From: a virus
Lineage: Duplodnaviria; Caudoviricetes
IMG/VR virus record: IMGVR_UViG_3300028738_000008
Length of the DNA stretch: 64,000 bases
Direction: 5' to 3' (one strand)
The notes under the pieces: generated by a model
Databases searched by the model: none
What the model was told of the DNA's origin: nothing
Seen by the model: the letters and a program-made list of their open reading frames with translations, nothing else
Part shown: piece by piece, positions 30,492-31,091 of the stretch
Layout: every line of letters begins with the position of its first letter
Position numbering within the stretch: position 1 is the first letter of the stretch
Program-made: the position numbers and the translations under genes

Positions 30492-30521
30492 ATGAGAAAG
30501 ATATAGATACGTCCTCCATAA
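30492..30521 (+). other. Amber-interrupted minigene MRKI*IRPP*
   Basis: atg aga aag ata tag ata cgt cct cca taa, 4 nt after the pth2 stop. Confidence 0.6.
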
Positions 30522-30635
30522 CGTCATAGGAAACTATGAATTTGCAATTCGCAAATTGCAAATCACATGCATGAATCATTTAGAATGACGACTGTATTAA
30601 TTATAAATGAATAAATTTAAATAAAAAAACACATC

Positions 30636-31091
30636 ATGGAAGCAGTAGCAAATAGTTCAAAAATAGTATCAAAGGATACACAGGCATTAGTAAACGGTAT
30701 TTCAGAAGTTATCGCCGTAATCAATAGCAAAATCAAAACAACTGACTGGAAGCAGTCATCGTCATTAAGTGTTTACAACAATCCAAAGTTGTTCTCATTG
30801 GTAGCTGATTTAGGCACATGCGACAGAAAAAGATTGAAGAGAATTCTAAACAGATGCATGACTAACACAAGTCTTAGGAACATCAATTCAGTTATACATT
30901 TCTTATCAAAAACAGTATATAACGATCTAATTCCTACGGCTTATGTTCGTTTATCAGCCACAGAAACAGCTATACAGTTAGCTAGAAAAAAATACGTGGA
31001 ATCTCGTAAGGCAACAGAAGCTTTACAGGCTAAATACAAGGTAGTTAAAGGGGATTACTACAAAATGAAAACAGCATTAGACTTAAAATAA
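30636..31091 (+). CDS. Basic hypothetical protein with C-terminal helix ending KGDYYK
   Basis: 151 aa ORF downstream of the minigene and hairpins. Confidence 0.75.
   Translation: MEAVANSSKIVSKDTQALVNGISEVIAVINSKIKTTDWKQSSSLSVYNNPKLFSLVADLGTCDRKRLKRILNRCMTNTSLRNINSVIHFLSKTVYNDLIPTAYVRLSATETAIQLARKKYVESRKATEALQAKYKVVKGDYYKMKTALDLK

What the first reader, a model, noticed from the sequence alone, without database searches (positions are those of the whole stretch)
30492..30636. Second amber-interrupted minigene (MRKI*IRPP*) followed by stacked hairpins
Four nt after pth2, a 10-codon ORF has an internal TAG and ends Arg-Pro-Pro-stop. This resembles arrest motifs such as RAPP-type peptides and TnaC Pro-stop. 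Hairpins follow: tcatag-gaaa-ctatga, tttgcaatt-cgca-aattgcaaa (30541-30562) and tcatt-tag-aatga. Inference: amber read-through moves the ribosome onto an RPP stall site that controls the downstream 30636 gene and also generates Pth substrate.
Basis: partly seen in the sequence, partly recalled or inferred. Interest (0 to 1): 0.75.

Follow-up and report, generated by a model that had tools for sequence, protein, structure and literature searches.

The report
Stop-codon-gated leader peptide in giant phages
The tiny gene after this giant phage's tRNA-hydrolase gene is a real, conserved leader peptide that can be read to its end only with the phage's own stop-codon-reading tRNA, and in related phages its end base-pairs with the start of the next gene, so it looks like a natural switch that senses that tRNA.

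Summary
ATG AGA AAG ATA TAG ATA CGT CCT CCA TAA lies at 30492-30521, four bases after pth2, and the named hairpins follow.

The minigene is not a chance ORF. I found it at the syntenic place in 22 distinct lineages of uncultured giant phages. The pattern is M-x3-[stop]-x1-3-R-[P/A/S]-P-TAA (a 23rd, shorter form is MS*SRPP*).
- Arg is kept through five codons (AGA, AGG, CGT, CGC, CGA), and the Pro codons vary at the third base.
- The internal stop matches the neighbouring suppressor tRNA. It is TAG with anticodon CUA, and TAA in the two lineages whose tRNA is UUA.
- These genomes otherwise use the standard code.

Where genes are inserted after pth2, the minigene stays in front of the next gene. 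In 13 of 22 lineages its terminal-stop strand forms an 8-14 bp helix with that gene's start codon, with covariation. Folding models open that start only when a ribosome sits at the terminal stop.

In this window's own lineage the same strand pairs with the minigene's own start (hairpin 1), and the 30636 gene's start is predicted open. The output here is therefore uncertain.

Stalling and production of Pth substrate are untested.

The scan had already noted the pth2 gating on this genome.

The parts
29698..29770 (+). Suppressor tRNA, anticodon CUA (reads UAG). It is the trans-acting input of the switch.
   Evidence: ARAGORN and Rfam tRNA at 63.6 bits. A suppressor tRNA lies within about 1.5 kb of pth2 in most related loci. 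It is UUA in L037 and L048.
30158..30487 (+). Pth2-like peptidyl-tRNA hydrolase gene with an in-frame TAG at codon 3 (30164-30166).
   Evidence: Pfam PTH2 E 5e-5. The early in-frame stop is kept in about 40 related loci, and is TAA in the two UUA-tRNA loci.
30492..30521 (+). Leader minigene M R K I [TAG] I R P P [TAA]. ATG is at 30492-94, the internal TAG at 30504-06, Arg-Pro-Pro at 30510-18 and the terminal TAA at 30519-21.
   Evidence: There are 22 distinct nucleotide versions with the same frame logic, synonymous variation in the Arg and Pro codons, and an internal stop that matches the tRNA anticodon.
30487..30524 (+). Hairpin 1: ACGTTATG paired with CATAACGT (8 bp). It pairs the minigene's own start codon with its terminal stop codon, in the same register (stop T with ATG A) as the long-range helix of relatives.
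   Evidence: It is invariant in the three close sub-lineages, so there is no covariation test.
30525..30540 (+). Hairpin 2: TCATAG-GAAA-CTATGA.
   Evidence: There is a compensatory double change to TCATGG/CCATGA in L001/L007/L013.
30540..30563 (+). Hairpin 3: ATTTGCAATT-CGCA-AATTGCAAAT (10 bp).
   Evidence: There is an A-to-G change giving G.U on the + strand in L001, and two loop changes in L004-6. L043/L045 have GATTCGCAATT/AATTGCGAATC, a compensatory T-A to C-G change.
30576..30588 (+). Hairpin 4: TCATT-TAG-AATGA (weak, 5 bp).
   Evidence: In L001 the 5' arm is TTATT, a U.G-compatible change.
30636..31091 (+). Downstream gene P0002 (family X, 151 aa, all-helical, function unknown), the presumed regulated gene.
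   Evidence: The AF2 model has pLDDT 82.6 with no informative fold match. An intrinsic terminator follows at 31126-31168.

Best explanation
The minigene is a translated regulatory leader ORF that senses the phage's own suppressor tRNA.

Proposed sequence of events:
1. Ribosomes start at ATG 30492. In this lineage they probably arrive by coupling from the pth2 stop four bases upstream, which melts hairpin 1.
2. After four codons they meet UAG.
3. Without the suppressor tRNA, a release factor ends translation there.
4. With it, the ribosome reads on to Arg-Pro-Pro-UAA. This is a C-terminal Pro context where peptide release is slow, so the ribosome dwells on the terminal stop.
5. In most related phages the terminal-stop strand (CCA TAA T...) is one half of an 8-14 bp helix. 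The other half is the start region (..ATT ATG G) of the next gene. A ribosome parked on the terminal stop therefore frees that start codon, as in secM-secA or ermC. A ribosome released at the internal stop does not.

The suppressor tRNA, the amber-gated pth2 and this leader thus form a small dedicated circuit in genomes that otherwise use the standard code.

What is shown and what is inferred:
- Shown by comparison: the coding constraint, the anticodon/stop covariation, and the helix with covariation in relatives.
- Inferred: the pause at R-x-P-stop, and the on-switch.
- Open: in this window's lineage the same strand pairs with the minigene's own start, and the 30636 start is predicted open. 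The output here may be rewired or lost.

My odds: translated and suppressor-decoded about 0.85; controls the next gene in relatives about 0.6; controls 30636 in this phage about 0.3.
For: 1. Conservation as a coding unit. There are 22 distinct nucleotide versions.
- Arg codons are AGA 15, CGA 4, AGG 1, CGT 1, CGC 1.
- The last Pro is CCA 17, CCG 3, CCT 2. The middle codon is CCN 18, TCN 3, GCA 1.
- There are four sense codons before the internal stop in 21 of 22.
- The terminal stop is always TAA, followed by T in 19 of 21.
- A 735-kb phage has MS*SRPP* in front of a family-X gene.

2. Anticodon and stop covary. Twenty leaders carry an internal TAG. A CUA tRNA was detected in 14 of those loci and none within the 3.3-kb locus of four others. 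The two UUA-tRNA lineages (L037, L048) have TAA both in the leader and at pth2 codon 3. Their R-S-P codons differ at every third base.

3. The base after the internal stop is a purine in 20 of 22. By my own knowledge of E. coli amber suppression, that context favours suppression.

4. The genomes are not recoded. ORF capacity is about the same under the standard code, TAA is the main stop even in the UUA phages, and pth2 is the only 5'-gated gene in four contigs.

5. The helix in relatives.
- In 13 of 22 lineages the next gene's ATG gives the longest fixed-register helix of all downstream ATGs in the locus.
- Columns -3 to +6 are paired in 16-19 of 19 lineages. Four canonical pair types occur at +4 and at +5.
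- A partner-permutation test on contiguous run length gives p = 0.006.
- The MFE folds contain the helix.
- In a three-state partition-function model the next gene's start region opens from 0.17-0.43 to 0.50-0.74 unpaired only with the ribosome at the terminal stop. This holds in 7 lineages.

6. Where genes are inserted after pth2, the leader stays 58-147 nt upstream of the next gene.

7. Literature.
- C-terminal Pro slows release (PMC7246954, citing Hayes 2002 and Pierson 2016).
Against: - In the window's own lineage the helix to the 30636 start is 5 bp, not above background (13 of 52 other ATGs do as well). That start is predicted 0.8-0.9 unpaired in all three states.
- The helix is weak in L025, L032, L034 and L039.
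- The total-pairs permutation test gives only p = 0.10.
- Part of the complementarity (CCATAA with TTATGG) follows from a Pro codon plus TAA and a common start context.
- No direct evidence of translation, read-through or pausing exists. No RNA data could be obtained.
- RAPP-type arrest needs an A-site Pro-tRNA, which a stop codon replaces here (PMC10951233).
- The host, and therefore its ribosome's behaviour at Pro-stop, is unknown.
- In the UUA lineages the terminal TAA is itself suppressible.
Confidence: 0.6

Rival explanations
1. The region is only a structured RNA or a DNA palindrome element, such as a processing site, mRNA stabiliser or operator. On this view the short ORF is an accident of an ATG and a TAA sitting in the two arms of hairpin 1.
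For: - Hairpin 1 places ATG and TAA in complementary arms.
- The fold has z = -3.57.
- Hairpin 2 has a compensatory change and hairpin 3 a G.U-compatible change.
- The hairpin-3 palindrome recurs in unrelated contigs. Two of them place it upstream of a winged-helix plus nucleotidyltransferase-like operon, where it is probably an operator.
Against: - Hairpin 1 is absent in many relatives that keep the minigene, for example L027 with CCG TAA.
- Arg is kept through AGR-to-CGN switches and the Pro third bases vary. That is an amino-acid constraint, not a nucleotide one.
- The frame is kept across the internal stop in 22 of 22 lineages.
- The internal stop switches to TAA together with the tRNA anticodon.
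Confidence: 0.07
2. The leader controls transcription rather than translation, as TnaC does. A ribosome parked at R-P-P-UAA would block Rho loading or an attenuator in the spacer, so the downstream gene is transcribed only when the suppressor tRNA works.
For: - The leader geometry (Pro before the stop) resembles TnaC (PMC8450073).
- A synthetic TAG-in-leader switch of this kind works in E. coli (PMC6412442 section 6).
- The same phage is reported by earlier notes of this scan to use leader-peptide attenuators before its tRNA genes. I did not check that.
- This reading would explain the window lineage, where the start codon is not occluded.
Against: - No intrinsic terminator is predicted between 30488 and 30635.
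- No C-rich rut-like tract is evident in this AT-rich spacer.
- The conserved pairing of the stop region with the next start codon is explained better by translational unmasking.
Confidence: 0.15
3. The minigene is a deliberate producer of peptidyl-tRNA, like the lambda bar minigenes. Short peptidyl-tRNAs would drop off at the slow stops, sequester particular tRNAs or feed Pth2, and tie the minigene functionally to pth2.
For: - The leader lies directly after pth2 in 13 of the 22 lineages.
- ORFs of 3-8 codons and early drop-off are known sources of Pth substrates (PMC2490762, PMC10192219).
- pth2 itself opens with a 2-5 codon ORF ending in the same stop.
Against: - In at least seven lineages other genes separate pth2 from the minigene, which stays with the next gene.
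- The conserved helix to the next start codon and the fixed codon geometry are not needed for a tRNA trap.
Confidence: 0.08
4. The product is a free bioactive 9-13 residue peptide ending in R-P-P, for example one acting on the ribosome or on release factors. On this view the RNA pairing is secondary.
For: - The C-terminal R-x-P and the N-terminal M-K-[D/H]-[T/L] are kept at the amino-acid level.
- By my own knowledge, proline-rich peptides such as apidaecin act at termination.
Against: - The middle of the peptide varies freely in sequence and in length, from 1 to 3 residues before the Arg.
- The internal stop is never replaced by a sense codon in the 22 leaders of this family, nor in MS*SRPP*. 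A mere coding codon would be expected to drift to one.
- The peptide is very short and has no similarity to known peptides that I could test.
Confidence: 0.05

Closest known systems
Arrest-peptide leaders that unmask a downstream start site (SecM-secA, ErmCL-ermC, MifM-yidC2)
   Same: - A short upstream ORF on the same transcript.
- A conserved C-terminal stall-type motif with Arg and Pro.
- An RNA helix that hides the next gene's start and overlaps the place where the ribosome would pause.
   Different: - The input is read-through of an internal stop codon by a phage-encoded suppressor tRNA, not secretion force or an antibiotic.
- The leader is only 9-13 codons long.
- The pause would be at termination, not elongation.
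- The stop codon itself pairs with the start codon.
TnaC leader of the tna operon
   Same: - Regulated pausing at a stop codon that follows Arg and Pro.
- The stalled peptidyl-tRNA(Pro) controls downstream genes (PMC8450073).
   Different: - TnaC has 24 residues and needs free tryptophan and tunnel contacts.
- It acts through Rho.
- It has no internal stop codon and no suppressor tRNA.
RAPP / RGPP / RSPP arrest peptides (ApdA, ApdP, ApcA, SecM RAG|P)
   Same: An R-[A/S/P]-P tripeptide at the C-terminus of the nascent chain. The Arg is the critical residue in those systems and is invariant here.
   Different: [quoted passage not shown] Here a stop codon occupies the A site.
- Those peptides are much longer and sit upstream of protein-localisation genes.
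Synthetic amber-codon leader switches (TAG placed in a leader peptide, reviewed in PMC6412442 section 6)
   Same: Expression of the downstream gene requires translation of a leader beyond an inserted UAG by a suppressor tRNA.
   Different: Those are engineered, transcriptional (they unmask a rut site) and depend on an unnatural amino acid. This one is natural, apparently translational, and found in phage genomes.
Stop-codon recoding in phages (code 15 Lak, crAss-like and other clades; bioRxiv 10.1101/2021.08.26.457843)
   Same: A phage-encoded suppressor tRNA, with in-frame stops proposed to time gene expression.
   Different: - Those genomes carry in-frame stops in many late genes.
- Here the genomes use the standard code. 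The programmed stops I found are in pth2 and in this leader.
- The leader uses the stop as a sensor, not as a codon inside a protein.
Lambda bar minigenes and Pth
   Same: Very short ORFs linked to peptidyl-tRNA hydrolase biology.
   Different: - By my own knowledge, bar minigenes are 2-codon ORFs that are toxic in Pth-deficient hosts.
- They have no read-through, no conserved C-terminal motif and no helix to a downstream gene.

Membership tests
Leader peptides that control translation of the next gene by unmasking its start (secM/ermC type) | A short ORF directly upstream of, and on the same strand as, the regulated gene | tested here: met
   The leader lies 58-147 nt upstream of the next gene in 22 lineages (114 nt in the window). 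No terminator is predicted in between.
Leader peptides that control translation of the next gene by unmasking its start (secM/ermC type) | An RNA helix that occludes the next gene's start and overlaps the ribosome's pause site | tested here: inconclusive
   This is met in relatives: an 8-14 bp helix with covariation, the best of all downstream ATGs in 13 of 22 lineages. It is not met in the window's own lineage, where the helix is 5 bp and the start is predicted open.
Leader peptides that control translation of the next gene by unmasking its start (secM/ermC type) | A regulated ribosome pause in the leader | not testable with these tools
   Only the conserved R-x-P-stop motif and literature on slow release after Pro bear on this.
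RAPP-type arrest peptides | R-A/G/S-P at the C-terminus of the P-site peptidyl-tRNA | tested here: met
   R-[P 18, S 3, A 1]-P in 22 of 22 leaders.
RAPP-type arrest peptides | Pro-tRNA (or Gly-tRNA) in the A site at the arrest point | tested here: not met
   The next codon is always TAA. [quoted passage not shown]
TnaC-type termination arrest | Pro as the last residue before the stop, with a ligand-dependent block of the release factor and a Rho site next to the stop | tested here: inconclusive
   Pro before the stop is met. No ligand, tunnel-contact region or rut site can be shown, and the leader has 9-13 codons against 24 in TnaC.
Stop-codon-recoded (code 15) phage genomes | Many genes with in-frame TAG, and much greater coding capacity under the alternative code | tested here: not met
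   ORFs of at least 150 aa number 38 against 41 in the window and 88 against 93 in the 148-kb relative, under the standard code and the TAG-sense code respectively. TAA remains the main stop in the UUA-tRNA phages.
Bar-like toxic minigenes | An ORF of 2-3 codons whose effect is sequestration of tRNA as peptidyl-tRNA | not testable with these tools
   The first segment has 4 codons before the internal stop.

The most novel reading that the evidence does not exclude
Giant standard-code phages may use a dedicated suppressor tRNA as a trans-acting regulatory RNA rather than to recode their genomes. Its arrival would switch on a small regulon through two devices. One is an early in-frame stop inside pth2. 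The other is a portable 9-13 codon leader (stop, then R-x-P, then stop) whose read-through and termination pause unmask the start codon of the following gene. This would be a natural tRNA-sensing translational switch and a new, minimal class of termination-arrest leader.
Probability: 0.5. Interest if true: 0.9.

Novelty: new variant of a known kind. Interest (0 to 1): 0.8.

Why it matters
Suppressor tRNAs in phages that use the standard code have had no known targets. The XacN1 authors wrote that they could not identify genes targeted by its two CUA tRNAs (PMC5852040).

This leader, together with the amber-gated pth2, gives such a tRNA specific and conserved targets. It suggests the tRNA works as a timer or checkpoint signal.

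It would also be three other things:
- A natural counterpart of engineered amber-leader switches.
- A very short arrest-type leader acting at a stop codon.
- A handle on two widespread giant-phage protein families of unknown function (X and Y) that sit under its control.

Tried and rejected
- Rfam gave no family match in 30488-30635; only the tRNAs matched.
- DNA search of the phage collection with 29300-31300 gave no match.
- RNA sequencing runs: none was listed for 29650-31250, so I did not lay reads.
- I first took the 'MKQVKLV' starts of database Pth2 homologues as evidence that TAG stands for Gln. The one I could fetch translates only with TAG=Q. The Q is therefore a gene-caller convention, and I dropped the argument.
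- The suppressor tRNA is not clearly derived from any of the window's tRNAs (best score with Lys-UUU, weak). The inserted amino acid stays unknown.
- The total-pairs permutation test for the helix was weak (p = 0.10), while the contiguous-run test gave p = 0.006.
- I looked for a partner that would hide the 30636 start in the window lineage. There is only a 6-bp option, with the 3' arm of hairpin 2, and it had no effect in the partition-function model.
- Family X (P0002) and family Y: Pfam and PHROGs found nothing useful. The AF2 models are good (pLDDT 82.6 and 92.8), but Foldseek against PDB and AFDB clusters gave no informative match.
- X and Y were not found in cultured phages.
- No whole genome is held for this window.
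- A scan for further leaders of this pattern in four contigs found only hits inside coding regions.

Full report
**Observation.** The pth2 gene ends with TAA at 30485-30487. Four bases later ATG AGA AAG ATA TAG ATA CGT CCT CCA TAA runs from 30492 to 30521. The three named hairpins are present at 30525-30540, 30540-63 and 30576-88. It pairs the minigene's start codon with its terminal stop codon. The + strand fold of 30484-30600 has z = -3.57 against shuffles, and the - strand z = -2.33. Rfam has no match there.

**Setting.** The window is part of a giant, tRNA-rich phage genome.
- It holds 33 tRNA genes, among them a CUA suppressor at 29698-29770.
- Identical copies of the downstream protein lie on contigs of up to 265 kb.
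- The gene at 30158-30487 is Pth2-like (Pfam E 5e-5) and opens ATG ACG TAG.
- The genome is not recoded. ORFs of at least 150 aa number 38 under the standard code and 41 with TAG as sense. Only 1 of 38 ends in TAG.
- Earlier notes of this scan had already reported the pairing of the suppressor tRNA with the amber-gated pth2 on this genome.
- I re-derived that pairing independently. About 40 related loci from IMG/VR, and four huge-phage genomes of 462-735 kb, start pth2 with ATG, 1-4 codons, then an in-frame stop.

**Is the minigene conserved?** In the three closest sub-lineages it is nearly invariant, with one synonymous CGT to CGC change. It is 97% identical where the pth2 coding sequence is 77% and the rest of the spacer 75%. 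That alone cannot separate coding from structure. The wider set can. A pattern scan of the related loci found a leader of the same logic in 22 distinct nucleotide versions:
- ATG, four sense codons (21 of 22), and an internal stop.
- Four to six further codons (six in 18 of 22) ending Arg-[Pro/Ser/Ala]-Pro.
- A terminal TAA, followed by T in 19 of 21.
- Arg is encoded by AGA, AGG, CGA, CGT and CGC.
- The final Pro is encoded by CCA, CCG and CCT, and the middle residue by all CCN, TCN or GCA.

An AGR-to-CGN switch that keeps arginine, with free third bases, is the signature of selection on a translated product. A 735-kb uncultured phage has the shorter form ATG TCG TAG AGT AGG CCG CCT TAA in front of a homologue of the window's downstream gene. 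The same regex is expected 0.03-0.07 times per contig by chance.

**Is the internal stop read by the suppressor tRNA?** ARAGORN finds a suppressor tRNA within about 1.5 kb of pth2 in most loci. It has anticodon CUA everywhere except L037 and L048, where it is UUA. Exactly these two lineages have TAA instead of TAG at pth2 codon 3. They also have TAA as the internal stop of their leaders, MKET*IKIRSP* and MKET*IKNRSP*. The R-S-P codons of those two leaders differ at every third base. The two phages are themselves far apart: GC is 28% against 36%, and their Pth2 is 64% and 49% identical to the window's.

Their genomes still use TAA as the main stop, in 26 of 28 and 19 of 27 long ORFs. Suppression must therefore be partial and context-dependent. 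The internal stops are followed by a purine in 20 of 22 leaders, and the terminal ones by T, often with a second stop in tandem. No lineage replaces the internal stop with a sense codon. That argues the stop is the point of the device, not a tolerated codon. Scanning four contigs for genes gated at the 5' end found only pth2. The suppressor tRNA, pth2 and the leader therefore look like a dedicated module.

**What does it act on?** In 13 lineages the leader follows pth2 directly, with its ATG between -4 and +26 nt of the pth2 stop. Where other genes are inserted (L029, L032, L034-36, L037, L038, L040, L046) the leader stays 58-147 nt in front of the next gene. That gene belongs to one of three groups.
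- Family X is the window's P0002 and its relatives.
- Family Y is an unrelated protein of about 110 residues.
- The third group appears in a few lineages.
- X and Y both begin MET[I/V]VK, which points to a nucleotide constraint on their start regions.

Minimum-free-energy folds of leader-to-next-start segments repeatedly closed the whole spacer with one helix. It joins the terminal-stop strand and the next gene's start region, with the T of the stop codon opposite the A of the ATG.
- In this fixed register the cognate start gives 8-14 contiguous pairs.
- It is the best of all downstream ATGs in the locus in 13 of 22 lineages.
- Over 19 lineages outside the window's group, columns -3 to +6 are paired in 16-19.
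- Four canonical pair types occur at +4 (A-T, G.T, G-C, T-A), and likewise at +5.
- Shuffling partners among lineages gives p = 0.006 for run length, but only 0.10 for total pairs.
- In a partition-function model, the next gene's start region is 0.17-0.43 unpaired in free mRNA. It is unchanged with a ribosome on the internal stop, and 0.50-0.74 unpaired with a ribosome on the terminal stop. This holds in seven lineages.

**Mechanism proposed.** The best reading is a leader that senses the suppressor tRNA. Release at the internal stop leaves the helix closed. Read-through brings the ribosome onto R-x-P-UAA, where release after proline is slow (PMC7246954 citing Hayes 2002 and Pierson 2016). The parked ribosome then holds the start of the next gene open.

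The R-[A/S/P]-P end recalls RAPP, RGPP and RSPP arrest motifs (PMC12992588). [quoted passage not shown] TnaC, which blocks release at a stop after Arg-Pro (PMC8450073), is the nearer functional analogue. An engineered version of the idea, a TAG placed in a leader peptide, exists (PMC6412442). I found no description of a natural one.

**This window's lineage differs.** The leader is two codons shorter. Its terminal-stop strand pairs with the leader's own start (hairpin 1) in the same register. The pairing with the 30636 start is 5 bp, which 13 of 52 other ATGs match or beat. That start is predicted 0.8-0.9 unpaired in every state.

Hairpins 2 and 3 are under structural selection. Hairpin 2 shows a compensatory TCATAG/CTATGA to TCATGG/CCATGA change. 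Hairpin 3 shows G.U-compatible and compensatory changes. Their role is unclear. In relatives, similar palindromes fill the spacer that the long helix closes.

Here the leader is probably translated by coupling to pth2. What its read-through changes is open. It may be Rho-type control or mRNA stability, or the original link may have been lost.

**What remains unknown.**
- The amino acid inserted at the stop.
- Whether pausing occurs.
- The functions of X and Y. Their models are confident but match no informative fold.
- Any RNA-level evidence; no run was listed.

Noticed in passing
window 30540-30563; loci L009-L023: The hairpin-3 palindrome (GAATTTGC.ATT.GC.AATTGCAAAT) occurs exactly in at least seven unrelated metagenome contexts. 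One is a group of 96-189 kb human-gut contigs. In L019 and L022 it lies just upstream of homologous two-gene operons, a winged-helix-like protein plus a nucleotidyltransferase-like protein, where it looks like an operator.
   Followed up: partly
window 54518-54853 (+): A 111-codon ORF that fills a gap between genes has an in-frame TAG at codon 32. The homologue in the 148-kb relative (83% identical) has TGG (Trp) at that position. This is either a tolerated nonsense change or a hint about what the suppressor tRNA inserts.
   Followed up: partly
L037 and L048 (IMG/VR contigs of 41 kb): Two phages carry a UUA (ochre) suppressor tRNA although TAA is their main stop codon, in 26 of 28 and 19 of 27 long ORFs. 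Suppression must therefore be weak or strongly context-dependent.
   Followed up: partly
start codons of the genes after the leader, e.g. L027:2039, L043:2020, window 30636: Two unrelated protein families (X of about 145 aa, Y of about 110 aa) both begin MET[I/V]VK, encoded by ATGGAAACAATAG-like DNA. This suggests a nucleotide-level constraint on the start region.
   Followed up: no
L051-L059 and L057, just after pth2: Other genes in more distant relatives also open ATG AAG TAG AT., for example MK*IKNKCEIVFHF and MK*ITLQALREAM. Early-stop gating is therefore not limited to pth2 in those phages.
   Followed up: no
L088 (LR756500.1, 462 kb), about 12 nt after pth2: A deviant leader, ATG AAA TAG ATT AAA ATT ACA ATT AGA GGT CCT ACG TAT TTG TTT TAA (MK*IKITIRGPTYLF*). 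R-G-P is followed by four more codons instead of a stop.
   Followed up: no
window 28721-28792: Rfam calls a further tRNA here (53.5 bits) that ARAGORN did not list.
   Followed up: no
L027, L030, L034, L040, L043, L045, between the pth2 stop and the leader ATG: In lineages with a 22-26 nt gap, a conserved motif ([AC][CG]T[CT]GCAA[CT]TAAATTT) precedes the leader. It also follows pth2 in L034, where no leader is adjacent. It may be a promoter or a start-site element.
   Followed up: no
window 43132-43137 and 60923-60946: The only two long ORFs ending in TAG are backed by a TAA, immediately or six codons later. This fits a genome adapted to its own amber suppressor.
   Followed up: no
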